Below, piece by piece: positions 6,356-59,814 of a stretch of DNA of 64,000 nucleotides (position 1 is its first letter; each line of letters opens with the position of its first letter). Below the pieces are notes generated by a model. The model saw only the letters and a program-made list of their open reading frames with translations, searched no databases and was not told the origin of the DNA. Source of the stretch: a virus (taxonomy: Duplodnaviria; Caudoviricetes); IMG/VR virus record IMGVR_UViG_2895442618_000001, positions 26,636 to 90,635 of that record. One strand, 5' to 3'. The translations under genes were made by a program, and so were the position numbers.

Positions 6356-7420
6356 TTACTGCACCTTCACGTTGCGGAGCACACCGCACGCCTTGGTCGA
6401 CCGCAGCACAGCCGCCAGGGGCCCCATCTCGACCTCACCCGACTTGACCGCGCCAGCGCGGTCGTAGTCCGGCATCCACGTCTGCAGCAGAGGGATACCG
6501 GCCGGGCTCGCGGCGTGGAAGGCGTCCAGGCCGAACGAAACGGCGTACAGGTCGGTCAGGCCGGCGATGCTGCCGCCACCACCGCTGCCGTCAGCGTCGC
6601 GGCTCTCGATCGGGATGATCGGGCTGGAGCCGTCCACCCGGTCGCCGATGTCGACCAGCGTCCACGGACCGTACATCTCGATGTGACGGCCCAGGTCGTC
6701 CTGGGTGGCGGTGTAGGCGCCCGCCCGCCGGGCCAGAGCCCGCACGCGGGTGATCGACTGAGTGTTGCCCAGAATCGCCTTCACACCGGGCGGCAGCGCG
6801 CCGGGCTGGTTGAGGTCGCCGCCGCCGACGCGGGACGGAACGATCCGGGACAGAAAGTCGTCCAGGTAGTCCAGCGCCGTCATCGCCTTGTCCTGGTCGT
6901 TGACGGTGGAGATCGTCCAGTCCAGGTAGCCAGCGGTGACGCTGTTGTCGTTCGGGTCCCACTCGGTGTCCGTACCAGTGAGGATCTTGTCCAGGCCGTC
7001 GAAGCCGCGGTCATCCACAGCGGTGTCGCCCCGGATCAGCTCCTGCTGGAACCGCATGCGCACCGAGGTGAGCAGCTCGTTCATCTGGAACGTGATCTCG
7101 TTCGTGGCCGCCGGGCCAAGGTTGGAGAACACGCGGTCCAGGGTGAACGCGCCACCGAGCGGCTTCAGGTCCACCGAATACCGCTGCCGGGTGGCCGCAG
7201 CAGCCGTGTACTCGGTGTTGTAGTCGCGGAAACCCGCCTGGCGCGGCGTGGTCAGCCGCGTGTAACCGTAGGTCAGGGTGCCGCCGCCGGTGCCAGGGGT
7301 GGCGACGTTGTCGAACACCATCTGGTCGGCGAGCCACGAGTACCGGCGCAGCGAGTCGATCACGCTGAAGTCGACGTCGGTCTGCGTGTTGACCTGCGCC
7401 TGAGCAAGGGTGACAGGCAT
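6356..7420 (-). CDS. Major capsid protein
   Basis: 354 aa MPVTLAQAQVNTQ..., GFDGLDKIL; directly after scaffold gene. Confidence 0.85.
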   Translation of the reverse strand: MPVTLAQAQVNTQTDVDFSVIDSLRRYSWLADQMVFDNVATPGTGGGTLTYGYTRLTTPRQAGFRDYNTEYTAAAATRQRYSVDLKPLGGAFTLDRVFSNLGPAATNEITFQMNELLTSVRMRFQQELIRGDTAVDDRGFDGLDKILTGTDTEWDPNDNSVTAGYLDWTISTVNDQDKAMTALDYLDDFLSRIVPSRVGGGDLNQPGALPPGVKAILGNTQSITRVRALARRAGAYTATQDDLGRHIEMYGPWTLVDIGDRVDGSSPIIPIESRDADGSGGGGSIAGLTDLYAVSFGLDAFHAASPAGIPLLQTWMPDYDRAGAVKSGEVEMGPLAAVLRSTKACGVLRNVKVQ

Positions 7421-8317: not shown

Positions 8318-9286
8318 TCAGGAGGTACGAGTCAGATAGCCGAACCGTTCGAGCAGGCGGATCGCCTCATCGCGGTCGCCGCCCGCGTCCGCCAAGAGCT
8401 GCTCGGGCATGGGCCTCGGGATCGTGGAGCGGCGGTAGCGTTCGCCCGGGAGGCGGACGTACTTGCCGAGCCGCCGGCCGGCCACCCCTCGTACGGTGGT
8501 GCCCTCGGTGGTGATCAGCTTCCCGCCCGCGGTCTGCATGCCGCGGCGAGCGTTGACGATCTGCCCCATGTCGGCGCCGAGCCTGATCGCCTCAGCTCCG
8601 GCTTTCCCGAATCGGCGGTCCTGTTCCTCGGCGGACATCTGCTCGAACAGGTCCATCGGCGACGGAATGTCTACATCGTCGCCGGTCACAGGCATCATGC
8701 CGCAGTCACACGCGGGGTGCCGGGCGAACCCCGTGGAGTGAGAATAGGTGCGCCCGGCCAGGATGATGCACCTGGAACAGGCCGGCAGATCGACCACTCG
8801 CACGTACATCACCCACGCGCGGTTCGCGGTCATGCCCACCTCAACAGCGCCACGGCCTGCGTCCGCGGCCTGCGTCGCGGCAATCATCGCCACGTGCGCA
8901 GTCGCCTGCCTCATCGCCTCCTCGGGGCTCACCCCCGCCACCAAGAGGCGTTTGAACAGCACGATCGGCTGATACAGGAGGCTCTCCAGCGGGCGGCCAT
9001 CCGAGGCGATCCCCGAGAACGCCGCAGCGACCGGTTCCAGACCCGACGGCGGCACCCCCTGAGCGGCGGCCAGCGCCTGCAGGTAGCCAGGCGCGAGCGC
9101 CGCAGCCTCCAACTGGGCTCTGGCCATCGTCTCAACGATGGACGGCCCCACGCCTGACTGCCACGACTCGGTGAGCCGCTCCTGGTCAAGCCGCCGCCAC
9201 AGTCCGAGGATCGCCGCGATCGCGGCCAAGACGATGCTCTTCTGCCGCTGCTGGTACGCCCGGGCGATCTCCTCCGGCGCCGCCAT
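8318..9286 (-). CDS. Head morphogenesis / minor capsid protein (MuF-like)
   Basis: ACSRCIILAGR...FARHPACDCGM motif; between portal and scaffold. Confidence 0.7.
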   Translation of the reverse strand: MAAPEEIARAYQQRQKSIVLAAIAAILGLWRRLDQERLTESWQSGVGPSIVETMARAQLEAAALAPGYLQALAAAQGVPPSGLEPVAAAFSGIASDGRPLESLLYQPIVLFKRLLVAGVSPEEAMRQATAHVAMIAATQAADAGRGAVEVGMTANRAWVMYVRVVDLPACSRCIILAGRTYSHSTGFARHPACDCGMMPVTGDDVDIPSPMDLFEQMSAEEQDRRFGKAGAEAIRLGADMGQIVNARRGMQTAGGKLITTEGTTVRGVAGRRLGKYVRLPGERYRRSTIPRPMPEQLLADAGGDRDEAIRLLERFGYLTRTS

Positions 9287-9289
9287 CGG

Positions 9290-10822
9290 CTACGCGTCCG
9301 GTTCAGACTCGACCGCGAACGGGTCGTCTCCAGGGGCGGCCCGTAGCGCCCGAGGCGGCTGGGCGCCGCCGTTCAGCATCTGATTGACCGGGTCCATTTC
9401 CGCCTGTTCCTCGACCATTGCCATGACGCGGTCGACCTCGGGCGGCTCCAGCCCGTACTGTTCGGCAATCCAGCGCAGCGGGAAGCCCATGGACTTCATC
9501 TTCATGAGCGCGTCGACCTTCTGGCCGATCGCCCTGAACTGCGGGTCTGCCCACATGACGACGCTGCGACGGCAAGCCTTCGCCTTCTCTTCGTCGTTCA
9601 TGGCGCTGGCCATCAGGGAGTGGATCTCCCGGATCGGCGAGTTGCAGTAGGTGATCCGTTCGCCTGTCTTGGCCACCAGGCCGGTTTCCGCGGCAGTCAG
9701 TGCTTCAGCGCTGAGGTTGGCGACCTTGCCGATCAGATAGTGAGGTGGGGTGCGGGTTTGTGCGCTGATGTGCTCGATCGCCCGCTCGATCACGTTGCTG
9801 TATGCGGACAGGTCCGCGGCTGGCCACGAGCCGATGCTGGCGTCGCCCGTCAGCCACAGGATCCGCTCGTTGATCAGCGTGTCCAGTTCCAGCGGGCGTT
9901 CGCCGACCTTCTGCCCGTTCTCGTCGAGGATCGGCATCTTGGGCACGTCCGCGCCCATGACGACCCGCTGCGGCAAGCTGGCGAAGTCGAGGGCGTTCAT
10001 CAGGTACGCCCACGTCAGGTTGATGGCGTCCTGCATCGCCATCACGCCGGCGATATCCGAGAGCGGGTCATCGTCGAGCAGCGTCTGGTTCCGCAGCTCC
10101 ACCATCGGGACGCGCTTCATCGGGTTCGGGATCGGCCATGTGTCGTCGTTCGGGCCTTGTCGCGGCTGCCACCCCTCCGGGCCCGCCGACCTGACGACGT
10201 CGCTCCCCGCGGGGACGATCAGCCCCGAAACGCTGTACCCGTTACGGGCGTAGCGCGGGCGGGCGAACTTCCACACGAACAACTTCTCGTACAAGGTGGC
10301 GTACTCGCGGGTGTCGTCAGACCACAGCTTCAGCGCCGCGATCCGCTCCCCGGTGTCGGAGTCGTACGCCACGATCGCCTGATCGGGACGCTCCCACGTC
10401 ACCCGCGGCTCGTCGTCCTCGGTGCCCCACACCAGGCAGTAGGCGCGGGCCGCCGCCAGCATGACGACGAACGCCTCCGAGGAGCCGCGCTCGCAGTCGG
10501 CGAACCGCCACGCCTCCGCCAGGTCCGCATCCGTCTCCTGCTCACCCGGCAGCCGGATGCCGAGCACGTTCATCCGCTCGGCGGGCGCCGCCGCAACCGG
10601 GGCGGTCCAGTTGTCGGAGAACCCCTTGAACCGGTCAGCGAAGTAGTCCCGGAACTCCGGGGAGGCGTAGCACAGCTTGTGCTTGCCCTTGTAGTAGTCC
10701 AGCCGCCTGGTTGTCTCCGTCTCCCGCCGGCGGAGCTCGTCAGCGAGACGGTTCAGGACGTTCACCGCCCGGCGTGCCTCGTCCGTGTTCGGCCCGTCCA
10801 CGACAGGCAGGGGCATGGCCAC
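9290..10822 (-). CDS. Portal protein (SPP1 gp6-like)
   Basis: 510 aa; YYKGKH, TRTPPHYL, LSAEAL motifs; follows terminase. Confidence 0.9.
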   Translation of the reverse strand: MAMPLPVVDGPNTDEARRAVNVLNRLADELRRRETETTRRLDYYKGKHKLCYASPEFRDYFADRFKGFSDNWTAPVAAAPAERMNVLGIRLPGEQETDADLAEAWRFADCERGSSEAFVVMLAAARAYCLVWGTEDDEPRVTWERPDQAIVAYDSDTGERIAALKLWSDDTREYATLYEKLFVWKFARPRYARNGYSVSGLIVPAGSDVVRSAGPEGWQPRQGPNDDTWPIPNPMKRVPMVELRNQTLLDDDPLSDIAGVMAMQDAINLTWAYLMNALDFASLPQRVVMGADVPKMPILDENGQKVGERPLELDTLINERILWLTGDASIGSWPAADLSAYSNVIERAIEHISAQTRTPPHYLIGKVANLSAEALTAAETGLVAKTGERITYCNSPIREIHSLMASAMNDEEKAKACRRSVVMWADPQFRAIGQKVDALMKMKSMGFPLRWIAEQYGLEPPEVDRVMAMVEEQAEMDPVNQMLNGGAQPPRALRAAPGDDPFAVESEPDA

Positions 10823-10828
10823 CGGGCG

Positions 10829-12487
10829 TCACCTCCGTCGTGTTGATGACGCCGTGTAGATCAGGTTCTCGGTGGGCTTCTCGACCGTGAACAGCCCGGC
10901 GGCGGTCGCGTCGCCGTACGCCTCGTGCGCGAGCACGGAGCAGACGGTCAGGTCGATCTTCTGGGTTTGGCTGGCCTTCGCCAGCACGTACCGCTGGCCC
11001 GGCCGCGGCGCCTTGCGGGTGTTCCGGACGTGGATGGCGGTGATCGGGCAGCCGTCGTGCCGGAAGCTCGAATCAGCTTTCCCGACGTCCACGTGCAGCC
11101 GCTCGCACGCGGCGTGCATCTGCACCGGCCGGTAGGTCGCCCACCGGATCACGATCTTGTCGCCGTACTTCTCCGCCCACGCGTCGATCTCGGACGTCCA
11201 CCCGGGCGGGTCGATGTAGGCCCGCACCACGTTGAACCGGGTCATGAGCTCGTCGAACGCCGCCGCCACTTCAAGCCGCGGCACCTGCCCGCCGTACGCC
11301 GCCGGGTCCCACACGGTGGGCCGCCGGTCGGGGCCGAATGTGGGCGTGAACTGGAAGCCGTCGCTGGTCTCGGCTCGGATCCCGGTCCAGTCGTCGACGT
11401 CGCTGCCGTCCATCCCGAGCACGATCGCGGTACCGTCCGGCACCTCGCACGGTTCGGCCCGACCATCCCAGACGTCGCCGTCGATGAAGTGGCCGGCGCC
11501 GTAAACGATCCGGTTGCCGAAGAACCGCTCCGCCTGGGCGGGATCCCGCTCGATCAGGTCCGCGGCCTCAGCTTCGATCGAGTCGAGGTCGACGTGGCCG
11601 CCGTTCTCCTTCAACGCCTCGCCGTACACGATGCGGTGGATCCTGCGCCGCTCCGCCTTGTTCCGATACGACAGGTGCCCTGGCGGCTGCACAAACTGGC
11701 GGTAGATGTCCTGCGCCGACGACTCGAACTGCTGCTGAGCGACCGAATTCTCCGACGGGTCCCACGCGTTCGTCGTCAGCGACGCCCGCCCGCCCATACC
11801 CGCCAGGCCGCGGTACTGGGTGTCGGCAACCCTCGTCATCTTGTTGGTCGTCGTCCACAACCCAACCTCGTCCTGCGGGACGAACGTGACCCGCTGACCA
11901 AGCCGCGACTGCGCGGAGGACGTCACCGTGTCCACTCGGCCGCCGCCCGGCAGGCGGATGAACTCCTCGCCCGTCTTCGGGATCAAGTCCGCGAGCGGCC
12001 CCAGTTCGATCATCGGCCGGAGCGCACCATAGATGTTGTCCGTCTGCTCCTCGGACACGGCGGTGATCTGGATGAGCGGCGTCGGCCACGGCATGCCCAT
12101 CGGCTCGCCGCGCTCGTACGGGTACTCCCACCCGCAGCCACACCCGAAGTCGGCGCACGCGTACCCATCATCACGGCCCGCCCAGCCAGCGAACAGCGCA
12201 GGCCCGACACCCTCCACACACACATGCGCGGCGGTATGCGGTCCCTTGCCAAGCTTCTGCGGACCAGCGAGCAAGCCACGCCGGTACACGAACGCCGGGC
12301 CGAGAACCGGATCCTCCGGCTGCCACACCGCATCCCCGCGCACCAGATAGAACGCGGCGAAGTAGCGGAGCTGGTAGTCGTACAGGTTGAACGGGTCGCC
12401 GCGACGGAAACCGTCCGGGATCACACAGTGCGCCTCGATCCACGCCGGCGCGACGAGCAGAGGCCGCGGGCTACGCTCCCCCGCCAT
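10829..12487 (-). CDS. Terminase large subunit
   Basis: Walker A-like GPQKLGKG, QDEVG Walker B, nuclease GMDGSDVDD and KIDLTVCSVLA. Confidence 0.9.
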   Translation of the reverse strand: MAGERSPRPLLVAPAWIEAHCVIPDGFRRGDPFNLYDYQLRYFAAFYLVRGDAVWQPEDPVLGPAFVYRRGLLAGPQKLGKGPHTAAHVCVEGVGPALFAGWAGRDDGYACADFGCGCGWEYPYERGEPMGMPWPTPLIQITAVSEEQTDNIYGALRPMIELGPLADLIPKTGEEFIRLPGGGRVDTVTSSAQSRLGQRVTFVPQDEVGLWTTTNKMTRVADTQYRGLAGMGGRASLTTNAWDPSENSVAQQQFESSAQDIYRQFVQPPGHLSYRNKAERRRIHRIVYGEALKENGGHVDLDSIEAEAADLIERDPAQAERFFGNRIVYGAGHFIDGDVWDGRAEPCEVPDGTAIVLGMDGSDVDDWTGIRAETSDGFQFTPTFGPDRRPTVWDPAAYGGQVPRLEVAAAFDELMTRFNVVRAYIDPPGWTSEIDAWAEKYGDKIVIRWATYRPVQMHAACERLHVDVGKADSSFRHDGCPITAIHVRNTRKAPRPGQRYVLAKASQTQKIDLTVCSVLAHEAYGDATAAGLFTVEKPTENLIYTASSTRRR

Positions 12488-15481: not shown

Positions 15482-16354
15482 TCACCCCAGCAATAGGAGT
15501 TGGTCTCCACCGGGACCGGCATTGGCCCACTTGCGGGAGTTGCACCTCTTGTGCGCGAGGCGGACGTTGGCGGTTTCATGAGTCCCGCCTCTCGACAGCG
15601 GGATGATGTGATCCAGGCTCCACTCGCCCGCTCTGACGCGCTTCCTGCAGATCTGGCAGACGCCCTGGTCTCGCTGGAAGATGTACTGCGGATCAACCAC
15701 TTCGACGAATGCTGCACGCAGGCGGCGACGGCGGTTGAACTTCACCTTCCGCATGATGGCTGCACGACGGGCGCGATACTCGGGATCCACCTTCGCCCGC
15801 TCCTTGTTGCGCTCATATTGACGCTTCCTAGCAACCTTCCCAGTGGGAGTAAGCCGCCATCGTCGACGAGTCTGCAAGTGCCGTATGCGGGCTTCGGGGT
15901 CCCGCTTGAAGAGCGGAACGTATTCGGGGTGGCGAGCCTTCCAGATGCCTATGGCCTTCCGCTGGCAGTCCTTGCAGTCCCACTGTCCCCCCTTGTGGAA
16001 GGACTTGATACTGAGGACTGCACGACACGTCCGGCATAGGCGGAGACCTAACTGGCGGAGTTTTACGTGGAAGATGCGCGCGAACGGGCGCTCTGCGCCA
16101 TTCGCCTTGAAGTACTGGTAGCAGGCAGGGCACCGGCCGAGTTGAATCCTGGTGGACATCTCCAAGCAGCGCGAGCACTCGCGGGGCTTGATAGTGCTAG
16201 GTCGCGGAAGCCTCTTCCCATCGATGACTTCCTTGGGCCGCTCTACGCCACGGCGGCTGAAGTACTTCGCGCACCGTGGACAGCGGCCCTTGCGCGTCGG
16301 GAAGTGCTCCGCCTGGCAGGCAGGGTTAACGCACACGTGTGTACTCTGTGACAC
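15482..16354 (-). CDS. HNH endonuclease with N-terminal Cys-rich domains (homing-type)
   Basis: C-terminal RDQGVCQIC...SLDHIIPLSRGG...NVRLAHKRCNSRK; several CxxC motifs. Confidence 0.85.
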   Translation of the reverse strand: MSQSTHVCVNPACQAEHFPTRKGRCPRCAKYFSRRGVERPKEVIDGKRLPRPSTIKPRECSRCLEMSTRIQLGRCPACYQYFKANGAERPFARIFHVKLRQLGLRLCRTCRAVLSIKSFHKGGQWDCKDCQRKAIGIWKARHPEYVPLFKRDPEARIRHLQTRRRWRLTPTGKVARKRQYERNKERAKVDPEYRARRAAIMRKVKFNRRRRLRAAFVEVVDPQYIFQRDQGVCQICRKRVRAGEWSLDHIIPLSRGGTHETANVRLAHKRCNSRKWANAGPGGDQLLLLG

Positions 16355-16505
16355 GTCGATCTCCTCAGTAGATCGGCCACGCCCCGGGAGTGTTGGTAGC
16401 ACTCGCCGGGGTTCACTTTTCGGTTGTGTTGGTCAGGCTACACCGGTTGAAAGCGTAGAGTCCTAGCCTCGTGACGGATCGCGTTCGGTGCGGTACGACC
16501 GGAGC

Positions 16506-22839: not shown

Positions 22840-22990
22840 TTGACATCCTCCCCCGCCTGGCGGCGGGGAATTCCAACGGCAACTACCTCACGGGGAGGAT
22901 GTCGTGTTGAGGTTCGCGGTTCACCGGCCCGCCCAACGGCGGGCCTCCCCGCGCAGACACGGCATGCCCTGCCGCGTGTTTGATGTTCCT
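22840..22990 (-). ncRNA. TnpB omegaRNA scaffold / IS200-IS605 right end
   Basis: Ends GGAATTCCCCGCCGCCAGGCGGGGGAGGATGTCAA (TCAA at 22843-22840); GACATCCTCCCC complement inside tnpB 3' end; 5' boundary approximate. Confidence 0.7.
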
Positions 22991-24094
22991 GGCCGCGTTC
23001 ACGTCGGCGTTGCAGGCGTATCCGCAGGATCGGCAACGGAAGTCGGCTTGGCTCTCGCGCGACTTCGCGTCCACGATCCCGCACGCCGAGCAACGCTGAC
23101 TCGTGTACGCGGGGTTGATCTTCACGATTCGGCCCGGGGCCTTGTGTTCCAGCCGTTCGACCAGTTGTCCCCAGCCCGCCGCGAGGATGCCTCGGTTCAG
23201 CCCGGCCTTCTGCCGGACGTTCCGGCCCGGCGCGTCGATGGTGCCTTTGGCCGATCGGGTCATGTTGCGGATCTTCAGGTCTTCGACCGCGATCACGTCG
23301 AAGCGGCGTGCGAGGTCGGTGCTGGTCTTCTCAATCCAGTCCTTGCGGCGATCCGTGTCCCGCGCCTTCAGTTTCGCGATGGCGGCCTTCACCTTGCTCC
23401 GCCGGTTCGACCCGCGCTGGGCACGGGCCAGTTTGCGGAGCAGTCGCAGGAGGCGGGCCTTCTCGGTGTCACGATACGTTGGCGCATGCAGCAACTCGCC
23501 CGTAGACAACGCGGCAGACACAACAACGCCACGATCAACGCCAACAACGTCACCCGTGCCGGGTGCTGAGATCGGTTCCGGTATAGCCGCGAAGGCGACA
23601 TGCCAGCGACCTGAAGCGTCTCGGGTGATCCTGAACGACTTGACGTCTTCGGGGACGGCACGCGACCAGCGGAAGCGGACCCAGCCCACTTTGGGGACCT
23701 TGACCTCGCCGACATTGCGGGAAACGCGGCGGACATCCCACTTACCGTGGCGTCCGGCTCCACGCTGCCCAACTATGCGAAATCCTTCCATCCGCCCGCG
23801 CTTGCGCCATGTCGGCTTGCGGTGACTGCCACCGAAGAAGTTGGCCATAGCCTGCGCGAAATCCTTCAGCGCCTGCTGCTGCACCATCTGGCTGCCTGCG
23901 CGCAGCCACTCAAACTCTGCGCGGGCCTCGGTTAATTGGCGACACTGCTCGGCGAACCCGGGCGCGCTCTTACGTCCTGGCCTCCAGTGGGAGCACTGCT
24001 CAAGCGCCAGATTCCAGACGAACCGGGCATGCCCGCAATGCTCCAGCAACGCCACCTCTTGGGCAGGCGTCGGCGTGAGGCGGTAGCGGGACAC
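22883..24094 (-). CDS. tnpB: RNA-guided endonuclease TnpB (IS200/IS605/IS607 OrfB)
   Basis: SRYRLTPT N-terminus; RuvC GVDRG, AVEDL, NADVNAARNI all intact; CSACG/CRSCG zinc ribbon. Confidence 0.92.
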   Translation of the reverse strand: MSRYRLTPTPAQEVALLEHCGHARFVWNLALEQCSHWRPGRKSAPGFAEQCRQLTEARAEFEWLRAGSQMVQQQALKDFAQAMANFFGGSHRKPTWRKRGRMEGFRIVGQRGAGRHGKWDVRRVSRNVGEVKVPKVGWVRFRWSRAVPEDVKSFRITRDASGRWHVAFAAIPEPISAPGTGDVVGVDRGVVVSAALSTGELLHAPTYRDTEKARLLRLLRKLARAQRGSNRRSKVKAAIAKLKARDTDRRKDWIEKTSTDLARRFDVIAVEDLKIRNMTRSAKGTIDAPGRNVRQKAGLNRGILAAGWGQLVERLEHKAPGRIVKINPAYTSQRCSACGIVDAKSRESQADFRCRSCGYACNADVNAARNIKHAAGHAVSARGGPPLGGPVNREPQHDILPVR

Positions 24095-26426: not shown

Positions 26427-26463
26427 AAAAAGCCCCGGCCTGGAATCTCTTCCTGACCGGGGC
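26427..26463 (-). terminator. Intrinsic terminator
   Basis: GCCCCGG...CCGGGGC followed by T5 on minus strand. Confidence 0.7.
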
Positions 26464-26522
26464 ACACGTCTCCGAAAACCGAGAGTAACGCGTCACGCCG
26501 CTGATCCACAAGTCGGCGCTGG

Positions 26523-28118
26523 TCAGAACGGCCAGTCGCACGACCTCCCCGCCTCAAGCAGCGGGATCAGCTTGAACGTGGAGTCGGAGAACCCGCCGAG
26601 CTCGTGCCGGTTCCCGGCGCCGGTCGGCATCGCCGCGTGCTGGTAGCCGACCAAGTTAAACCCGTACATCGGGATGTGCTTGGGCGCGGCGTCGGTGACG
26701 TTCCCGGCGTAGTAGCCGCTCATCGTCTGCATGTCCGACAGGATGATGACCCTGTCGTGGCCGGAGTAGGTGCGCTGCACGGACGCGGCGATCTGCGTGC
26801 CGTGGCCCACCTCGCCCGTCCGCGCGGCGAATCGCTCCAACTCCCGCAGCACAGACGCGCCCTTGCCGACCTCGTGCTTGAACACGCTGTCAGCGAAGCC
26901 GTACAGGTCCACGCCGCCCTTCACTGCCAGCGACACCCCGAACAACGCCGCGGCCTGCGCCGGCGAGACGGACGACCTGCCGGAGATACGGCTACCGGTC
27001 ATCGACGCCGACGTGTCCACGAGCACGAGCGTGCGCCCCTTGAACGCGGGAACGTTCGACGTGGCCAGGGTGAGCGCCTTGTCGAGCGCGTGACCCCACC
27101 GCAGCGACGGAGCATTCAGATACGCCGAGAAGAACCGGAACGGAAGCTGCCGGGAGCGGGCAACCTCCTCCGGGTTCACCAGCTTGGCGATGATCTGGTC
27201 GGCGATCTCGTCGGGGATGCCGGCCTGGTCGAAGTTGCGAAGGTTCCTCAACAGCGCCATGTAGCCCATCGACGGGATAACCGCCGTCCACGCCTGCGCG
27301 TCCATCGGCCCCTGAAGCCAGCCCGCGAGCGCCTCCCACGTCATGCCCGCGTCGGCGAGCGTGGCGTTGACCGCGGACGGCACGCCCACGGCAACGATCG
27401 CGCGGCGTTCGGCGACCGGCATCGACATGAGGTGTGCGCGGCGCCGCAGCATGGCGAGCGACTCGGGAATGTCGTTGTCGCGGCCGTGGCGCCGGTCGAG
27501 CGCGTGCCGGAAGAGGTCGCCCTGCCAGCGCTTCGCCGCGTCCGGCGACGGGTGAACGAGGTCGATGACGTCGCCGAACCGGTAGCCCTTGGAGTCGGTG
27601 TCGTACTTGAGCAGGTTGCGCTCGTTGTACATCCGCTGGACGGCGTCGGCGATGCCGCGCTTGACCGGCTTCGGGATCGCACGCCCGTACGTGGACGTCC
27701 AGTAGGCGAGCGCCTCCCCTGGCTCGTCTGGGCGCTGGAGCACTGTGTTCACGAGCTGCCGGTTAAGGCCCTGCTCGCCCGCGGCGAGACGTGCCTTGAC
27801 CGCTTCGAGCGCGGCGACGATCGGCGCGGACCGCATGTTCGCCTCGCCGCGCAGCCACGGCAGGAACCGGGCCAGCCACTCGCCGTCCTCGATGGCCACC
27901 TGGTGGACGAGAGCCCGGAACCGGTTGTCCCGGCCGCCGGCCTTCTCGTAGAAGGTGTCTTCGCCCACCATGTTCGACACGGCGAGCAGGAAGAGTTCTC
28001 CCTTTGCGTCCCTGATGTATCCAGGGGCTCCCTCGTGGGTGCGCCCGGATGGGGTCCGTTCGGTCTTCACCGGGCTGAACACGGCCGGGCGGGTGGTCGT
28101 GCTGTTGAACTTCGTCAT
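26523..28118 (-). CDS. rsr: TROVE-domain RNA-binding protein (Ro60 / Rsr orthologue)
   Basis: GEDTFYE, NMRSAPIV, MGYMALLRNLRN, vWA MIDAS VDTSASM, LSDMQT; 531 aa. Confidence 0.92.
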   Translation of the reverse strand: MTKFNSTTTRPAVFSPVKTERTPSGRTHEGAPGYIRDAKGELFLLAVSNMVGEDTFYEKAGGRDNRFRALVHQVAIEDGEWLARFLPWLRGEANMRSAPIVAALEAVKARLAAGEQGLNRQLVNTVLQRPDEPGEALAYWTSTYGRAIPKPVKRGIADAVQRMYNERNLLKYDTDSKGYRFGDVIDLVHPSPDAAKRWQGDLFRHALDRRHGRDNDIPESLAMLRRRAHLMSMPVAERRAIVAVGVPSAVNATLADAGMTWEALAGWLQGPMDAQAWTAVIPSMGYMALLRNLRNFDQAGIPDEIADQIIAKLVNPEEVARSRQLPFRFFSAYLNAPSLRWGHALDKALTLATSNVPAFKGRTLVLVDTSASMTGSRISGRSSVSPAQAAALFGVSLAVKGGVDLYGFADSVFKHEVGKGASVLRELERFAARTGEVGHGTQIAASVQRTYSGHDRVIILSDMQTMSGYYAGNVTDAAPKHIPMYGFNLVGYQHAAMPTGAGNRHELGGFSDSTFKLIPLLEAGRSCDWPF

Positions 28119-28123
28119 AACGC

Positions 28124-28162
28124 AACGAGCCCCTCTCGAATGTCGATCGAGAGGGGCTCGTT
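28124..28162 (-). promoter_or_regulatory. 16-bp perfect hairpin covering the rsr ribosome-binding site
   Basis: AACGAGCCCCTCTCGA-N7-TCGAGAGGGGCTCGTT, ending 5 nt before the ATG. Confidence 0.7.
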
Positions 28163-28173
28163 CAAGAGATCGC

Positions 28174-28311
28174 GCCCGAGATCAAGGTCGGCGTAGGTGA
28201 CTGTTTGTGTGCTCTGCCAACTGAGCTACACCCCGCGTAGTGCGGGGTGACAGGACTTGAACCTGCGACTCCACCCTCCCAAAGGAAGTAACCCATGCCT
28301 GCGCACCGGGC
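28174..28311 (-). ncRNA. Y RNA-like RNA 1 (YrlA-type, with tRNA-like domain)
   Basis: 5' GCCCGGTGCG pairs with 3' TTGATCTCGGGC; T arm GCAGG-TTCAAGT-CCTGT precedes a closed acceptor stem and D arm TAGCTCAGTTGGCAGAGC. Confidence 0.8.
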
Positions 28312-28330
28312 ACGCGCTCTGAAGTTGTAT

Positions 28331-28460
28331 CCCTCCCGAGATCAAGGTGACGGCGGTGTTTGGCTTGTCCCGCGACGCTCGGCCAGAGCCGAGCACAGGA
28401 GTCGAACCTGTCTTGTCAGTTATTGAGACTGAAGTAACCGCAGTCAGCGCACCGGGAAGG
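28331..28460 (-). ncRNA. Y RNA-like RNA 2 (YrlA-type)
   Basis: Same CCCGGTGCGC, GGTTACTTC and ACCTTGATCTCGGG boxes; T arm ACAGG-TTCGACT-CCTGT; closed stem GCTCGGC-TCTG-GCCGAGC. Confidence 0.75.
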
Positions 28461-28477
28461 TGCATATCCAGTTGTGA

Positions 28478-28551
28478 GCTTCAGAGATCAGAACGGCGCC
28501 GGGTCGGTTTCATTTAGCAGATGAAGGAACCGGAGCCCTCGCACCTGAAGC
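28478..28551 (-). ncRNA. Short Y RNA-like RNA 3 (YrlB-type, no tRNA domain)
   Basis: GCTTCAGGTGCG...CTGATCTCTGAAGC terminal stem; TACGGT -10 box 7 nt upstream. Confidence 0.7.
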
Positions 28552-28558
28552 ACTCCCC

Positions 28559-28585
28559 ACCGTAGCGGTAGGCGTGACGCGTCAC
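28559..28585 (-). promoter_or_regulatory. Putative promoter of the Yrl-rsr operon with palindrome
   Basis: -10 TACGGT (28564-28559) and perfect palindrome GTGACGCGTCAC (28574-28585). Confidence 0.55.
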
Positions 28586-30774: not shown

Positions 30775-30993
30775 TCAAGGCCGCTTCTGTCTGATCTGCG
30801 CTGCGGTCTTGAAGTCCTTGGTTGCCTGCTTCCAGCGGCGTTCCGCTTCGTTCCACGACTTTTCAGCCTGCTCCCAGTTCGCGATGGCCCGCTGGGCGCT
30901 GCGCTTGACGTCGCGACAGACCCAGATCGACACGGCGAGGGCCACCACGGATAGCGCCAGGGTCCCGTACGGGAGCCACACGAGCCAGTTCAC
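30775..30993 (-). CDS. Membrane-anchored coiled-coil protein
   Basis: N-terminal TM helix followed by WEQAEKSWNEAERRW. Confidence 0.6.
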   Translation of the reverse strand: MNWLVWLPYGTLALSVVALAVSIWVCRDVKRSAQRAIANWEQAEKSWNEAERRWKQATKDFKTAAQIRQKRP

Positions 30994-31454
30994 GTCTCCT
31001 CCTCGGGTGGTGCTGGCGTCTCTGCCTCGTCGAGGATCGCCAGCGCCTGGCGGTAGCGGCGAGCCAACGATGCGGCCTGTCTCGGCTCCAAAGTGGCCAG
31101 ACGGTCAGGCGCGGAGTTGTGGCCGATGTCTGCTCTCTTGACCAGCCTGCCCATCGGGTGCGCTGCGGCTCGGCGGATGAAGTCGGCGTAAGCCTCGCCT
31201 TCGCGGCGGGTCACCGAGAGGATCGCGTCCACGGTGTCCGCTTCCACTCCAGCGGCGAGAAGGTCTTCCGCTGTCACGTCGGTGTCTTCGATGACGTCGT
31301 GGAGTATCCCCGCGATGCGGGCCTGCTCGCCGTGTTCGGTGAGCGCGTCGGCGACGGCCAGAGGGTGGTGGATGTACGGCACTCCTGCCTTGTCCGTCTG
31401 GCCGTGGTGGGCCTTCTCGGCGAGACGGTAGGCGTCCTCAAATGTGAAGGTCAT
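30990..31454 (-). CDS. Stand-alone HD-domain hydrolase (RelA/SpoT hydrolase, Mesh1-like)
   Basis: HHGQTDKAGVPYIHHP, LHDVIEDT, VKRADIGHN. Confidence 0.85.
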   Translation of the reverse strand: MTFTFEDAYRLAEKAHHGQTDKAGVPYIHHPLAVADALTEHGEQARIAGILHDVIEDTDVTAEDLLAAGVEADTVDAILSVTRREGEAYADFIRRAAAHPMGRLVKRADIGHNSAPDRLATLEPRQAASLARRYRQALAILDEAETPAPPEEET

Positions 31455-41721: not shown

Positions 41722-43116
41722 TCAGTTCACGACGTGCAGGTCGGGTCGGCCGGTAGGGGTTGAGGTGGGCTCGTCCTTGGCCATGTCGATCAGCCGGGAG
41801 TAGTGGAGTTGGGCGGCCACGGTCACGGTCGCCTGGGGGCCGCCGCGGTTCTTCGCCACGATCAGCTCGGCCTCGCCCGCTCGAGGGGACTCCGGCTCGT
41901 AGGCATCTTCGCGGTGGATGAGGATCACCACGTCGGCGTCCGCCTCGATGGAGCCGCTGTCCTTCAGCTCCCCGATCTGGGGCCGCTTGTCGGTGCGTTT
42001 CTGCGACTCGCGGTTGAGTTGGCTGAGCAGCACGATCGTCAGCCCGAACTCGCCCGCCATGGCCTTCAACTGCTGGGTGACCATGCCAAGCTCGATGTCA
42101 CGGCGCGGATTCTTGGGCGCGGTCATGATCTGCAAGTAGTCGACGACCACGAGCTTCGCCGGGTCTTCACGGGACAGCCAGCGAAGCTGGGAACGGATGT
42201 GATCGAGCGTGCAGCCGGGCACGAAGTCGATCGTCAGCGGCGACCCGGAGATGCGGGCGCCGGCCTCCGCGGCGGCGGCGAGTTGCTGCCGGGTGACGTT
42301 GCGGGTGCGGATGGCGCGCAACGGTATGCGCCCTTCGGCGGCGGTGATGCGGTCGACGACCTCTTCCTCGCTCATTTCGAGCGTGAAGATGATGCTCCGC
42401 TCGCCGTTCTGGATGGCGGCCTTGCGGGCGAAGTCGACGGACAGGACGCTCTTGCCCAGGCCGGGCCGACCGGCTATGACGACGAGCTGCCCCTTGCGGA
42501 AGCCTCCGCCGAGCAGGTGGTTGAGGTCCTCAAACGGCGTCTCGATCACGTCGAGCTTCGGCGGCGGGTTCTCCAGCTCGTCGAGCAGTTTGACCACGGT
42601 GGCCGAAACGTCCTTGGGTCGCTCGCCGATCCGGCGGGTCAACGCCTCGTCGACCATCTTGCGGACCTGATCGATGTCCGTGGACGGGTCCCACGTCGCG
42701 TGCTCGGTCATCTGGATGCTGGTGCGGAGTGCCTGCTGCAGACGGCGGCGTTCGGCGTCCTGGGAGATCTCCTTGCACAGGCGGCCCACCGACCCGGCGA
42801 CGGCGGCGTGCTCCATCAGCGTGTGCAGGTACGAGCCGCCGCCCACCCGCTCGAGGTCGCCTTGGTTTTGCAGCTGGATCAGCACCTCGGTGGTGTCGAT
42901 CCGCGTCTTGGCGCGGTCGGCCGGCTTGCAGTTGTCCCGCACCTCCAGCGCTGCGGCGAACACGTAGCGGGCGACGCTGTAGAAGTCCGCAGGCGTCACA
43001 ATGTCGGCAGCCTCGTCCAGCAAGAGCCGGGACTGGATCGCCGCGCCAGCGATGGCCATCTCCGCGGCGATGACCTTCTCGGTCGCTTCCCAGCCGGACG
43101 TCTCGAAGTCGGTCAT
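41722..43116 (-). CDS. dnaB: Replicative DNA helicase, DnaB family
   Basis: AGRPGLGKS, VVVDYLQ, SQLNR, DSGSIEADAD, IVAKNRGG. Confidence 0.93.
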   Translation of the reverse strand: MTDFETSGWEATEKVIAAEMAIAGAAIQSRLLLDEAADIVTPADFYSVARYVFAAALEVRDNCKPADRAKTRIDTTEVLIQLQNQGDLERVGGGSYLHTLMEHAAVAGSVGRLCKEISQDAERRRLQQALRTSIQMTEHATWDPSTDIDQVRKMVDEALTRRIGERPKDVSATVVKLLDELENPPPKLDVIETPFEDLNHLLGGGFRKGQLVVIAGRPGLGKSVLSVDFARKAAIQNGERSIIFTLEMSEEEVVDRITAAEGRIPLRAIRTRNVTRQQLAAAAEAGARISGSPLTIDFVPGCTLDHIRSQLRWLSREDPAKLVVVDYLQIMTAPKNPRRDIELGMVTQQLKAMAGEFGLTIVLLSQLNRESQKRTDKRPQIGELKDSGSIEADADVVILIHREDAYEPESPRAGEAELIVAKNRGGPQATVTVAAQLHYSRLIDMAKDEPTSTPTGRPDLHVVN

Positions 43117-57265: not shown

Positions 57266-57606
57266 AGCTGACCGCCCGCCAATTGCATCTCCGCCCGCGC
57301 CGTGGACTGGATGGTCCTGCCCACGTCGATCCGCGAATGGAGCGCCTTAACGTTTTCCTTCCGGAGCCGGACCAGCGCGGCAGCCTTGCCCCAGATCCGC
57401 CAGAGGTCGATCGTCTCTTCGGTGGCGATCTGCTTGCGGTCCTCAACCGACCCGACCGCGGTACGGAACGCCTTGGAGAAGGCAACCTTGAACTTTGCCT
57501 CATCCTCGACGGCCTGCTCTTCGGCCTTCCCGAGCTCCTTCACCGCCTCGTCCAGGTCGCGAGAGAGCTGGCCGAGCTGCTTGACGATCGTGAGCATCTC
57601 GCTCAT
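57262..57606 (-). CDS. Coiled-coil hypothetical protein
   Basis: 114 aa helical, coupled to recombinase gene. Confidence 0.65.
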   Translation of the reverse strand: MSEMLTIVKQLGQLSRDLDEAVKELGKAEEQAVEDEAKFKVAFSKAFRTAVGSVEDRKQIATEETIDLWRIWGKAAALVRLRKENVKALHSRIDVGRTIQSTARAEMQLAGGQL

Positions 57607-58574
57607 GACTGGCCTCCCTCAGAGTCGGCCACCTCGTCCTCGTCGTAGTGGAGCGGGTTGTCCTCGGCCGGCGCCGTGAACGGCGGCTCGTCAACGAAGT
57701 CGCCGCGGTTGAGTGCCGCCATCACCTGCGCGGCCTCGGCTCCGGTCAGGTCCTCGCTCTTGCCGATCTCGCGGTCGGCGACCTTGGCCATGTACGCCAG
57801 CCCCATGTCCGGGTCGGTGATGCCCTTCTCCGACAGGAGCTGCACGATCTGGAAGCGCTGGTGCTTGGTCGCCCCACCGGGTGTGGCGTCACCGTTCTTC
57901 GCCGCGGCGGTCTCGCGGATGGTCTCCCCCACGATGACGTCGCGCGGCTGCTCCTCATCGAGGTGGGCCATCTCGTCGTCGGTGTACAGGTCGCCCAAGT
58001 CCTCGGGGAACGCCTTGCGGAGCGCGAGCGCCTCCGCGCACTTGGCGGTCATCCCGGCCGGGTCGGTCTTCCACCGGTTCTTCGGCCTACCGTCCCGGTC
58101 GGTGTCGACGTACGCGCTGTACAGCGCCACAGCGGAGAACCGTTTGCCGTTCTTGATGACGGCGACCTTCGCCGCGGCGGGCGGCTCGCTGGCCAGCCAC
58201 ACCTCGTGCTGGGAGCCGTCAGGGCCGAACCAGATGGTGTCCTCGTACTCGTACTCGATGCTCGCGCGGCGTGCCGCCCGCTGGGCCAGGACACGGAACC
58301 CATCGATGCCGGTCTGCGGGGTGTAGACGGTGCGGTAGCTGCCGTCGCGCTGCTTCTGATTGCGGCCAACGAGGTACACCTGCTTGAGGAACGGGTCCAA
58401 GCCTCGCTTCTGGCACAGGTGGAGATAGCCGGCCAGGACGGCGTTCGGGCAGTCATCCGCGACGCCGAGCGTGGCGAGAACGGCGCGCTGGTAGGGCGTC
58501 CACATCGACTGCTCCGGCTGAATCGCCAGGGTTCCGTTTCCCTGCGTCGCCGGCAGGTTGTCGGTCACGGTCAT
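57603..58574 (-). CDS. RecT/Bet-like single-strand annealing protein
   Basis: GLDPFLKQVY, TGIDGFR, KCAEALALRKAFP, LYTDDEM. Confidence 0.88.
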   Translation of the reverse strand: MTVTDNLPATQGNGTLAIQPEQSMWTPYQRAVLATLGVADDCPNAVLAGYLHLCQKRGLDPFLKQVYLVGRNQKQRDGSYRTVYTPQTGIDGFRVLAQRAARRASIEYEYEDTIWFGPDGSQHEVWLASEPPAAAKVAVIKNGKRFSAVALYSAYVDTDRDGRPKNRWKTDPAGMTAKCAEALALRKAFPEDLGDLYTDDEMAHLDEEQPRDVIVGETIRETAAAKNGDATPGGATKHQRFQIVQLLSEKGITDPDMGLAYMAKVADREIGKSEDLTGAEAAQVMAALNRGDFVDEPPFTAPAEDNPLHYDEDEVADSEGGQS

Positions 58575-59506
58575 GCCGCAACTCCTCGAAGAAGATCGGA
58601 AAGGTCAGGAAGCTTCTGCTCGGTCACCAGGTACGGCGTGCCGCCGCCCTTCGCCTGTCGGCGGGCGAGCCGATAGCCGTCGTAGAAGGCGCGGTGCGCG
58701 GGCCCCATCGCCTCAAGCAGGCGGGTACGGGCCTTCTGTTCGCGCTCCTGCGCTTCACGGAGACTGGTGGTGGCGTCGATGAACTCGACCGCCAGGTCAA
58801 GGTCCGCGACGAACGCCGCGTCCTTATCGATGTCCGGGTGGAGTTTCCGCACCGCGGCGTAGGTGGCCGGGTGGTGGTCCAGGTCCGGCATCTCCCGCCA
58901 GTACAGCGACGACAGGAAATCCTCGGCCTGGTCGCGCATCCACACGCAGTCCTGGGCGTCGTAGTGGACGACGTACTCGCGGAACTCCAGCCGCCCCGTG
59001 AGGACGACGACGTACCAGACGTCCAGGCCGAGCGTGTCCATGTACCACTGGACCTGCGGCCGGTAGTAGGGCGGGATCTGATCCGTCCCCGGACGGCCCC
59101 AGCCGGACGCTTCGGCGTCGGTCTTCAACTCCAGCCCTGCCCGCACGCCCGGCTCAGGGAAGTGGCCGGGCATGCCGAGCAGCAGCCGGTCAGGGTTGGC
59201 GAGCTGGTAGTCCCGTTCGGCGTGCACGTACGTACCGGCCTCGCGCACCTCGTACTCGGGGTGCTGGTCGGCGAACCATGCCGCGATCCCAGCTTCCAGG
59301 TAGTGGCCGCGCGCCTGCTGCTTGGTCTGCTTGTCCTTCTCCACGAGCCCGGCCATCTGGCACCACACCGAGTACGGCGACTCCCACGGCGACAGACCCA
59401 GCAGGGCGGCCATGCGGGAGCCGCCGAGACGCTGAGCCCGAGCCGCGTCCCACTGAGGGGACCCACTCTCCCAGCGCCCCAGCAGGCGTCCCGTCGGCGT
59501 GCGCAT
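58571..59506 (-). CDS. YqaJ / lambda-type exonuclease
   Basis: LGGS, GHYLE, ANPDRL, LELKT, YRPQVQWYM. Confidence 0.88.
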   Translation of the reverse strand: MRTPTGRLLGRWESGSPQWDAARAQRLGGSRMAALLGLSPWESPYSVWCQMAGLVEKDKQTKQQARGHYLEAGIAAWFADQHPEYEVREAGTYVHAERDYQLANPDRLLLGMPGHFPEPGVRAGLELKTDAEASGWGRPGTDQIPPYYRPQVQWYMDTLGLDVWYVVVLTGRLEFREYVVHYDAQDCVWMRDQAEDFLSSLYWREMPDLDHHPATYAAVRKLHPDIDKDAAFVADLDLAVEFIDATTSLREAQEREQKARTRLLEAMGPAHRAFYDGYRLARRQAKGGGTPYLVTEQKLPDLSDLLRGVAA

Positions 59507-59814
59507 CAGGCGTTGTCTCCCTCGTCGTTGGGGGCATCCAGGGGCTTGATGTGGCGGGCGTAGACCGTCGCGTCGGTGTGCGACAGGGTGTTCCGAGCGG
59601 TGACCTCCCACTCGTGGCCCGCCCAGGCGTACCGGCTGTTGCGGACCTGACCCACGAGCCGGTTGGCGTCCTTGTAGTCGCCGACGAAGACCTTCGCCCA
59701 CTGGCCGGTCTTCTCGATCAGAGCGGCGATGGTGGGCGCCCATATGGAGGCGTCCCGCGGACCGTTGGCGGCTGGGGGCGGGTCCATGAAGACCGGCTCC
59801 ATGGGGGCGTTCAC
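59506..59814 (-). CDS. Hypothetical protein
   Basis: 102 aa, coupled. Confidence 0.6.
   Translation of the reverse strand: MNAPMEPVFMDPPPAANGPRDASIWAPTIAALIEKTGQWAKVFVGDYKDANRLVGQVRNSRYAWAGHEWEVTARNTLSHTDATVYARHIKPLDAPNDEGDNA

What the first reader, a model, noticed from the sequence alone, without database searches (positions are those of the whole stretch)
26523..28585. Phage-borne Ro60/Rsr gene with three tandem Y RNA-like genes
Seen: a TROVE/vWA protein preceded on the same strand by three self-complementary units. RNAs 1 and 2 share CCCGAGATCAAGGT (28175, 28335), GAAGTAACC (28285, 28431) and GCGCACCGGG (28301, 28447); RNA 3 is a short variant. Established: bacterial Rsr binds Yrl RNAs that mimic tRNA and act in RNA degradation or repair, and such RNAs have been reported in some phages. 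Inference: this self-contained cassette, with two tRNA-mimic RNAs plus one short RNA, sits between the putative late regulator and an HTH gene. No rtcB was seen in the window. It could serve counter-defence or RNA surveillance during infection.
Basis: partly seen in the sequence, partly recalled or inferred. Interest (0 to 1): 0.85.

Follow-up and report, generated by a model that had tools for sequence, protein, structure and literature searches.

The report
Prophage Ro60 gene with three Y RNAs
A prophage in an actinobacterial genome carries a self-contained cassette: a gene for the ring-shaped RNA-binding protein Ro60 (Rsr) preceded by three related small "Y RNA" genes, one of them a full tRNA look-alike. 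The finding is real, but phages carrying this pairing have been described before.

Summary
A covariance model built from 37 homologous units in related loci scores all three units as full-length matches:
- RNA1 28170-28315(-), 130.6 bits.
- RNA2 28330-28461(-), 68 bits.
- RNA3 28476-28553(-), 47.4 bits.

They share one Rsr-binding helix and differ in the distal module. RNA1 is a complete YrlA-type tRNA mimic, RNA2 lacks the D arm, and RNA3 lacks the whole tRNA-like domain.

The ORF 26523-28118(-) is a full Ro60 fold (TROVE ring plus vWA domain with an intact MIDAS motif). Its closest solved relative is Thermus phage phiLo Ro60.

The cassette appears to have its own -10 element, a conserved hairpin that masks the Shine-Dalgarno sequence before rsr, and a terminator. 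It lies between phage replication and packaging genes.

The same Rsr clade with 1-7 upstream units recurs in 251 actinobacterial stretches and 43 viral contigs. Phage Rsr with Y RNAs is already published (Chen 2014; phiLo 2025), so this is a new member of a known kind.

I did not find the following described: the "V" hairpin of many units has an anticodon-loop signature (CU-NNN-AA), and RNA1 resembles a permuted tRNA-Pro(UGG).

This scan has noted Ro60-like protein/RNA pairs in at least 30 other genomes, but the ones listed involve other protein and RNA families.

The parts
28559..28585 (-). Putative promoter region of the Y RNA array. A -10-like TACGGT (28559-28564) ends 6 nt before RNA3. A 12-bp palindrome GTGACGCGTCAC (28574-28585) lies just upstream and may be an operator.
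   Evidence: TANNNT sits at the same place in all 10 aligned relatives, and the palindrome is kept in L005-L008 (A5). The sigma-70 consensus scan found nothing. This is inferred, with no expression data.
28476..28553 (-). RNA3: a short Y RNA with the Rsr-binding helix, the GGUUCCUUC motif and one hairpin (5-bp stem, loop CUGCUAA). It has no tRNA-like domain.
   Evidence: R1 gives 47.4 bits, E 1.7e-10, over the full model with 70 positions replaced by 7 nt. Sixteen homologues align, and 7 of 18 pairs show compensatory changes.
28330..28461 (-). RNA2: a Y RNA with the Rsr-binding helix, V hairpin (loop CUCAAUA), T arm and a 7-bp closed acceptor-like stem. The D arm is replaced by about 10 nt. 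It is comparable to YrlB of M. smegmatis, which also keeps a T arm.
   Evidence: R1 gives 68 bits, E 3e-13. The fold z-score is -3.1.
28170..28315 (-). RNA1: a full YrlA-type Y RNA. In order it has the Rsr-binding helix, linker stem, UA kink motif, V hairpin (loop UUUGGGA), T arm, an 8-bp closed acceptor-like stem and D arm.
   Evidence: R1 gives 130.6 bits (RNA1 is a seed member). Rfam YrlA gives 34.4 bits, E 1.8e-5, on 28205-28274. The family structure has 96.2% of cells paired and 24 pairs with double changes; 0/500 shuffles reach this.
28124..28162 (-). A 15-16-bp GC-rich hairpin between RNA1 and the rsr ATG. Its 3' arm holds the Shine-Dalgarno-like GAGAGGGG (28130-28137), 11 nt before the ATG. 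It may be a terminator or attenuator, a translational mask, or both.
   Evidence: MFE is -34.9 kcal/mol. A hairpin with a purine-rich 3' arm occupies this place, with different sequences, in most of the 45 relatives folded.
26523..28118 (-). rsr: a phage-type Ro60 with a TROVE HEAT-repeat ring and a vWA domain.
   Evidence: See (9KOP/9L5Y at E 2e-28; 2NVO at 7e-5). The AlphaFold model has pLDDT 85.7, and its top 13 PDB matches are all Ro60 with TM 0.61-0.73. MIDAS residues D368, S370, S372, T441 and D462 are invariant in 23 relatives.
26427..26463 (-). Intrinsic terminator after rsr: stem GCCCCGG/CCGGGGC followed by TTTTT.
   Evidence: Read directly from the sequence. The scan missed it because the loop is longer than 8 nt.

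Best explanation
This is a self-contained accessory cassette of a temperate actinophage. It encodes a phage-type Ro60 (Rsr) ring protein and three cognate Y RNAs.

Transcription (inferred): the three RNAs are probably made as one transcript from a promoter just upstream of RNA3. A conserved ACAACU spacer lies between the units, where the transcript may be cut apart. The strong hairpin before rsr would limit read-through and mask the rsr ribosome-binding site, so RNA would be in excess over protein.

RNA design (shown by sequence and covariation): each RNA pairs its 5' and 3' ends into the same bulged helix, 5' GGUGCG(A/C)AGG over 3' CCG..YUGAUCUC. This sits where Ro60 binds all known Y RNAs. 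The distal ends differ: RNA1 is an L-shaped tRNA mimic, RNA2 is a mimic without a D arm, and RNA3 has a single hairpin.

Function (by analogy): in Deinococcus and Salmonella, and in vitro for phage phiLo, Y RNAs tether Ro60 to host polynucleotide phosphorylase (PNPase) and gate its cavity. The three RNAs most likely give the phage Rsr three alternative adaptors or gates. These would redirect host exonuclease or tRNA-binding enzymes to structured or damaged RNA during lysogeny or lytic growth.
For: - The protein is a full Ro60 by sequence, fold and MIDAS motif.
- All three RNAs are homologous full-length matches to one covariance model.
- The structure is supported by covariation: 22 of 31 pairs compensatory, and 96.2% paired against 81% shuffled and 35-49% slid.
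- RNA1 matches Rfam YrlA in the T arm, acceptor stem and D arm core.
- The RNA-protein linkage is conserved. There are 194 units in 80 genome loci and 120 in 43 viral loci, all on the rsr strand. No neighbouring protein gene is conserved.
- Phage genes lie on both sides: capsid, protease, portal and TerL at 6-12.5 kb, and DnaB, RecT and RecE at 41-60 kb.
- Published precedent: Chen 2014 (PMC4201824) reports YrlA next to Rsr in 254 bacteria and 22 phages. The phiLo Ro60 paper (PMC12135203) shows binding to two upstream Yrl RNAs and complexes with host PNPase.
Against: - There are no expression, processing or binding data for this locus.
- Rfam YrlA is not reached at gathering score (34.4 against 69 bits), and RNA2 and RNA3 get no Rfam hit.
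- The consensus scan found no promoter or terminator. The -10 element, terminator and processing site rest on my reading of alignments.
- PNPase tethering is extrapolated from other species. The effector of YrlA-type tRNA mimics is unknown even in the model organisms (bioRxiv 10.1101/312249).
Confidence: 0.88

Rival explanations
1. tRNA decoy or sensor panel. This is a functional variant of the main reading, not an alternative identity. The hairpin just 5' of the T arm mimics an anticodon arm with a different 'anticodon' in each RNA: GCU in RNA3, CAA in RNA2 and UGG in RNA1. The Rsr-bound RNAs would soak up or sense host anticodon nucleases or tRNA-modifying enzymes, protecting the phage's translation.
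For: - Among 243 units, 81 of 134 with a hairpin of at least 4 bp at this place have a 7-nt loop.
- In 61 distinct hairpins the loop shows C32 79%, U33 89%, R37 90% and A38 87%, with 27 different middle triplets. U33 plus R37 occurs in 51 of 61, against about 10% expected from composition. The spacer to the T stem is 4-6 nt.
- ARAGORN takes this loop as the anticodon in pseudo-tRNA calls inside units of at least 13 relatives.
- RNA1's 3' half is 39/46 identical to host tRNA-Pro(UGG), and its three best matches are all tRNA-Pro.
- Both host YrlAs show CUUCUAA and UUCGGGA loops (read).
Against: - Only about a third of all units (81 of 243) show the 5-bp/7-nt form. RNA1's own stem is weak, with 3 bp for the 7-nt loop, or a UUUG tetraloop instead.
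- The triplet does not predict the rest of the body in general: 9 of 63 matches against 3.8 expected, with a maximum of 10 in 2000 permutations. For the acceptor stem the test gives p = 0.097.
- The signature could be a relic of a tandem-tRNA origin, or a binding site for something else.
- No anticodon nuclease was looked for.
- Published work calls this element the variable arm (PMC4201824).
Confidence: 0.15
2. Cis-acting leader. The three units are not free small RNAs but part of a long structured 5' leader of the rsr mRNA. Rsr would bind this leader to autoregulate its own synthesis.
For: - The units are on the same strand and close to rsr, and no terminator lies between them.
- The conserved hairpin sequesters the Shine-Dalgarno-like sequence of rsr.
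Against: - In every system studied, upstream Y RNAs accumulate as discrete Rsr-bound RNAs (PMC4201824, PMC12135203).
- In some relatives the units lie downstream of rsr or among tRNA genes (L115, L116, L110).
- The number of units varies from 1 to 7, which is unusual for a leader.
Confidence: 0.07
3. Decayed tRNA genes. The units are remnants of a phage tRNA cluster with no function of their own.
For: - tRNA-like T and D arms are present.
- Relatives carry rsr beside arrays of 20-21 tRNA genes (L091, L123).
Against: - ARAGORN finds no tRNA in the window.
- The arm order is permuted and the acceptor stem is closed by a loop.
- Compensatory changes occur in all helices, including the non-tRNA terminal helix.
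- The linkage to rsr is strict across 123 loci.
Confidence: 0.02

Closest known systems
Thermus phage phiLo Ro60 with Yrl1/Yrl2 (PDB 9KOP, 9L5Y; PMC12135203)
   Same: - Phage-encoded Ro60 with Y RNA-like genes directly upstream on the same strand.
- Closest solved sequence relative (E 2e-28) and top fold match.
- A CGAA-type motif sits in the 5' strand of the helix. Many relatives here read GUGCGAAGG; the window has GCGCAGG and GCGAGGG.
   Different: - About 24% identity.
- Three RNAs here, not two.
- As described in the paper, the phiLo Yrls are stem-bulge-stem hairpins, not tRNA mimics.
- The host is an actinobacterium and the phage is integrated.
YrlA / YrlB of Mycobacterium smegmatis and mycobacteriophages (Chen et al. 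2014, PMC4201824; Rfam RF02553)
   Same: - Located upstream of rsr.
- Terminal Rsr-binding helix.
- Permuted tRNA-like domain in the order V stem-loop, T arm, closed acceptor stem, D arm.
- A second RNA that keeps only a T arm (YrlB, comparable to RNA2) and a simpler hairpin RNA.
- RNA1 has a closed acceptor stem of at least 7 bp, like the M. smegmatis YrlA that RNase P cleaves.
   Different: - Scores below the Rfam gathering cut-off.
- The Rsr clade is only 24% identical to the host's chromosomal Rsr.
- The helix sequence differs from that of the host's own YrlAs.
Deinococcus radiodurans Rsr with Yrn1/Yrn2 and the RYPER complex with PNPase
   Same: - Several Y RNAs encoded in a row upstream of rsr and processed from a polycistronic precursor.
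- Y RNA acts as tether and gate.
   Different: - Yrn1 has a different arm order and only partial tRNA features.
- Sequence similarity of the proteins is weak (2NVO, E 7e-5).

Membership tests
Ro60 / Rsr (TROVE + vWA) | TROVE domain detectable by sequence | tested here: met
   PF05731 at 2.6e-14, 53.7 bits against a cut-off of 23. phrog_850 matches over the full length at 1.3e-47.
Ro60 / Rsr (TROVE + vWA) | Full-length HEAT-repeat ring plus C-terminal vWA fold | tested here: met
   The model has pLDDT 85.7 and pTM 0.82. The top 13 PDB matches are all Ro60 (phiLo, Xenopus, human, Deinococcus), with TM 0.61-0.73 over about 510-555 columns.
Ro60 / Rsr (TROVE + vWA) | MIDAS motif DxSxS...T...D in the vWA domain | tested here: met
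   D368, S370, S372, T441 and D462 are invariant in 23 relatives of 46-84% identity.
Ro60 / Rsr (TROVE + vWA) | Binds Y RNA helix and misfolded RNA | not testable with these tools
   This needs EMSA or RIP.
Y RNA (general) | Long stem formed by the 5' and 3' ends, carrying a conserved bulged helix (the Ro60 site) | tested here: met
   The helix has a bulged U, an internal loop and C-G plus G-U/C pairs. It is the same in all three units and in A1 and A2. The outer pairs covary: helix 1 has 6 of 11 pairs with double changes and 97.5% paired.
Y RNA (general) | Encoded next to the Ro60 gene | tested here: met
   The units lie 52-435 nt upstream on the same strand. 116 of 121 related loci with upstream sequence have at least one unit.
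YrlA (Rfam RF02553) | Score at or above the Rfam gathering cut-off (69 bits) | tested here: not met
   RNA1 scores 34.4 bits as a local match to model positions 23-87. RNA2 and RNA3 get no hit. The host's chromosomal YrlA also fails, at 43.8 bits.
YrlA (Rfam RF02553) | tRNA-like domain in the order T arm, closed acceptor-like stem, D arm, with the conserved tertiary-contact nucleotides | tested here: met
   This holds for RNA1 only. It has T loop UUCAAGU, the UA linker, D loop AGUUGGCA with G18 and G19, C at the last variable-loop position to pair with G15, and the UA kink motif (read). RNA2 lacks the D arm and RNA3 lacks the whole domain.
YrlA (Rfam RF02553) | Substrate of tRNA enzymes (TruB, DusA, RNase P, CCA-adding enzyme) | not testable with these tools
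   No data.

The most novel reading that the evidence does not exclude
In actinobacterial and actinophage YrlA-type Y RNAs, the so-called variable stem-loop is a maintained anticodon-arm mimic: a 5-bp stem, a 7-nt CU-NNN-AA loop and a 4-6-nt spacer to the T arm. Its 'anticodon' differs from unit to unit. An array such as this one would then display several pseudo-anticodons on one Ro60 platform, as decoys, sensors or guides for anticodon-directed enzymes. Some units (RNA1 here, L124, L012) are near-complete permuted copies of real tRNAs (Pro, Pro, Glu). This also supports an origin by tandem duplication of tRNA genes.
Probability: 0.2. Interest if true: 0.75.

Novelty: new member of a known kind. 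Interest (0 to 1): 0.4.

Why it matters
What phage Ro60 particles do during infection is an open question. So is which effector binds the tRNA-like domain of YrlA.

This locus belongs to a very large clade of temperate actinophage cassettes that can be searched by sequence: 251 genomic stretches and 43 viral contigs. The clade has natural variation in unit number (1-7) and in unit type (full mimic, no D arm, stem only). The host here also has a second, chromosomal Rsr with its own two YrlAs, whose binding helix has a different sequence. That gives a natural test of whether the phage and host particles are insulated from each other.

The anticodon-loop signature, if functional, would link Y RNAs to the phage-host conflict over tRNAs. 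As it stands, the finding mainly adds a well-documented example to a known class. It also shows that the Rfam YrlA cut-off misses this clade.

Tried and rejected
- Rfam at gathering score found nothing in the window. At E up to 10 it found only a partial YrlA hit for RNA1. The other weak hits (L31 leader, guanidine-III, Ocean-VII, UptR, twister-sister) are chance-level.
- ARAGORN found no tRNA or tmRNA in the window, so these are not ordinary tRNA genes.
- The megablast search of 24 kb of the window against the phage collection found no close relative. Only the rsr gene matches annotated actinophages, at 67-77%.
- tblastn with seven neighbouring proteins found none conserved with the cassette.
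- I tested whether the pseudo-anticodon predicts the tRNA identity of the rest of the unit. Best-hit concordance was 9 of 63 against 3.8 expected. Acceptor-stem concordance gave p = 0.097. This is not a general rule and holds only for a few units.
- The palindrome GTGACGCGTCAC could be a repeated operator. It has only one near-copy, just after rsr, and 14% of shuffles give two hits. This is inconclusive.
- Pfam on six further ORFs, including the right end of the window, found no integrase. The prophage ends were not mapped.
- The Annual Review on bacterial Ro60 (PMC10870794) and the supplementary tables of Chen 2014 could not be read. I therefore could not check how many units were reported per phage, or whether the V-loop signature has been noted.
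Full report
**Setting**

The window is G000:C20:30923-94922 of an 11.0-Mb, 64-contig, high-GC actinobacterial genome. The closest rsr loci are in Nonomuraea and Streptosporangium.

It is a prophage, and nearly all of its genes lie on the minus strand:
- major head protein 6356-7420, protease 8318-9286, portal 9290-10822 and large terminase 10829-12487;
- HNH endonuclease 15482-16402;
- DnaB-like helicase 41722-43116, RecT 57603-58574 and RecE-like exonuclease 58571-59743.

The finding lies between the replication and packaging regions. I did not map the prophage ends, and six extra ORFs gave no integrase.

**The observation**

ORF 26523-28118(-) hits Pfam TROVE (2.6e-14) and, over its whole length, phrog_850 (1.3e-47).

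The closest solved structure by sequence is Ro60 of Thermus phage phiLo (9KOP/9L5Y, E 2e-28). Deinococcus Rsr is far weaker (7e-5).

An AlphaFold model built on 23 relatives (pLDDT 85.7, pTM 0.82) finds only Ro60 structures in its top 13 PDB matches, with TM 0.61-0.73 over the full length. The vWA MIDAS residues D368, S370, S372, T441 and D462 are invariant in relatives of 46-84% identity. The protein is therefore a complete Ro60.

**The RNAs**

Rfam at gathering score finds nothing. At E-value threshold it finds YrlA (RF02553) on 28205-28274(-), at 34.4 bits and E 1.8e-5. The match covers model positions 23-87, which are the T arm, closed acceptor-like stem and D arm.

The cut-off of 69 bits is evidently too strict for this clade. 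The host's own chromosomal rsr (C21, 24% identical to the prophage protein) has a YrlA upstream that also reaches only 43.8 bits.

I therefore collected relatives of the protein. There are 251 stretches in one-per-species genomes (the best 80 were kept, all Actinomycetes) and 43 IMG/VR viral contigs. BLAST of the three units against their upstream regions showed homologues of all three.

Thirty-seven full-length units align well (A1):
- RNAalifold predicts 31 pairs, 22 of them with compensatory changes.
- With the V hairpin added, 96.2% of cells are paired, against 81.1% in shuffles and 35-49% when partners are slid.
- 24 pairs have double changes, and 0 of 500 shuffles reach any measure.

The covariance model R1 gives these scores in the window:

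| Unit | Coordinates | Bits | E-value | Note |
|---|---|---|---|---|
| RNA1 | 28170-28315(-) | 130.6 | 7.7e-27 | seed member |
| RNA2 | 28330-28461(-) | 68 | 3e-13 | 18 D-arm positions replaced by 10 nt |
| RNA3 | 28476-28553(-) | 47.4 | 1.7e-10 | filters off; 70 positions replaced by 7 nt |

All three are end-to-end matches.

Sixteen RNA3 homologues show the same terminal helix, and 7 of 18 pairs have compensatory changes.

All three units share this helix, in order:
- an outer stem that covaries (CCCG/CGGG in RNA1 and RNA2, UUCA/UGAA in RNA3);
- G-C and G-C pairs with a bulged U on the 3' strand;
- a 2x2 internal loop;
- C-G and G-U pairs.

Its conserved letters are 5' GGUGCG(A/C)AGG and 3' CCG..YUGAUCUC. 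This is the position of the Ro60 site in all Y RNAs. From memory, unverified, it resembles the GGUCCGAAGG / UUGACUA helix of human Y RNAs. Many relatives carry the CGAA motif stressed in the phiLo paper (PMC12135203).

**Anatomy of the cassette**

A TANNNT hexamer (TACGGT, 28559-28564) lies 6 nt before RNA3 and is present at that place in all ten aligned relatives. A perfect 12-bp palindrome (28574-28585) lies just upstream and is kept in the four closest loci.

The spacers after RNA3 and RNA2 share ACAACU, which is conserved after short units in A2.

Between RNA1 and the rsr ATG lies a 15-16-bp GC hairpin (28124-28162, -34.9 kcal/mol). Its 3' arm contains GAGAGGGG 11 nt before the ATG. A hairpin with a purine-rich 3' arm occupies this place, with different sequences, in most of the 45 relatives folded.

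After the rsr stop there is a stem-plus-TTTTT terminator (26427-26463).

None of seven neighbouring proteins is conserved with the cassette, so the RNA array plus rsr moves as one module.

**Distribution**

R1 finds 194 units in the 80 genome loci and 120 in the 43 viral loci, all on the rsr strand. At stricter thresholds, 116 of 121 loci have at least one unit and 77 have two or more.

Full-size, mid-size and short units are mixed in many orders. The unit next to rsr is a full tRNA mimic in 88 of 113 loci. L095 has seven units.

In the own genome only the prophage and the chromosomal rsr locus have such RNAs. The chromosomal locus has two YrlA-like units (77.9 and 41 bits). Their terminal helix reads GGGUCGAAU / CCAUAUCC instead of the phage motif. 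This suggests, but does not show, that the two particles are insulated from each other.

**What is known**

Chen et al. 2014 (PMC4201824) reported 355 putative YrlAs next to Rsr in 254 bacteria and 22 phages, including several per locus. The paper also reported these points:
- M. smegmatis has YrlA plus a YrlB that keeps a T arm.
- Each species studied also has a simple hairpin Y RNA.

The YrlA crystal structure paper (bioRxiv 10.1101/312249) shows a true L-shape and notes that the effector is unknown.

The phiLo paper shows two Yrl genes upstream of a phage Ro60, their binding to that protein, and complexes with host PNPase.

'Ro-like RNA binding protein' is a routine annotation in Streptomyces, Gordonia, Arthrobacter and Mycobacterium phages.

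The finding is therefore a new member of a known kind.

**The V hairpin**

Two other first-stage notes on this genome proposed anticodon-like loops and a permuted tRNA-Pro. I tested both.

Anticodon-like loops:
- Right after the invariant CUUC, 134 of 243 units have a hairpin of at least 4 bp, and 81 of these have a 7-nt loop.
- In 61 distinct hairpins the loop reads C32 79%, U33 89%, R37 90% and A38 87%, with 27 different middle triplets.
- U33 with R37 occurs in 51 of 61, against about 10% expected from composition.
- The spacer to the T stem is 4-6 nt.
- ARAGORN uses this loop as the anticodon when it calls pseudo-tRNAs inside units of at least 13 relatives.

Permuted tRNA-Pro:
- RNA1 from this hairpin to the acceptor 3' strand is 39/46 identical to the host tRNA-Pro(UGG), and its next two matches are the other tRNA-Pro genes.
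- Its acceptor 5' strand CGGGGUG equals that of tRNA-Pro(CGG).
- Two other units behave likewise: L124 (Pro) and L012 (Glu).

The rule is not general. The triplet predicts the best-matching tRNA body in 9 of 63 units against 3.8 expected, with a maximum of 10 in 2000 permutations. For the acceptor stem, p = 0.097.

My reading is that the anticodon-loop shape is maintained in many units, and that some units have recently copied tRNA segments. A decoy or sensor role is possible but unproven. I found no paper that describes this, but I could not read the main review.

**Verdict**

I am about 0.88 confident in the Rsr plus three cognate Y RNAs reading, which rests on sequence, fold, covariation and conserved linkage. 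The operon logic and processing are inferred. PNPase tethering or gating is by analogy only, and I would put that step alone at about 0.4.

Other agents of this scan have reported Ro60-like proteins with partner RNAs in at least 30 other genomes. The ones listed involve different protein and RNA families, whereas this one is the canonical TROVE/YrlA type.

Noticed in passing
G000:C21, locus L004 6710-8458(-) and 8427-8741(-): The host chromosome has a second rsr, 582 aa and 24% identical to the prophage copy. Two YrlA-like RNAs lie upstream. Their Rsr-binding helix has a different sequence (GGGUCGAAU / CCAUAUCC), so there may be two insulated Ro60 particles in one cell.
   Followed up: partly
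window 28574-28585 and 26485-26496: A perfect palindrome GTGACGCGTCAC lies just upstream of the Y RNA array, and a one-mismatch copy lies just after the rsr stop, so the two bracket the cassette. 14% of shuffles give two hits, so this is weak. It could be an operator or a module boundary.
   Followed up: partly
window 22883-24094 (-): A TnpB / IS605 OrfB-type gene sits inside the prophage: Cas12f1-like TNB, OrfB_IS605 and HTH_OrfB_IS605 domains, and phrog_506 at 7e-84.
   Followed up: no
window 30990-31454 (-): A small HD_4-domain phosphohydrolase (phrog_990 at 4.8e-47). It is of the RelA/SpoT-hydrolase type and may be an alarmone hydrolase.
   Followed up: no
L091 168-2659; L123 259-2764; also L110, L111, L115, L116: In more distant viral contigs, rsr and its Y RNAs sit at the end of, or inside, arrays of up to 21 tRNA genes. 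In L115 and L116 the units lie downstream of rsr.
   Followed up: no
L029, L036, L081, L083, L086, L055 (rsr-proximal units): In this subgroup the segment CGGAU...AUCCG can pair instead of the V hairpin. This competes with the linker stem and may be an alternative fold.
   Followed up: no
window 28316-28329 and 28462-28475: The spacers between units share ACAACU, which is conserved after short units in relatives. It may be a processing site of a polycistronic precursor.
   Followed up: no
Rfam RF02553 (YrlA): The gathering score of 69 bits misses both the prophage YrlA (34.4 bits) and the host chromosomal YrlA (43.8 bits). The family model seems to under-represent this actinobacterial clade.
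   Followed up: partly
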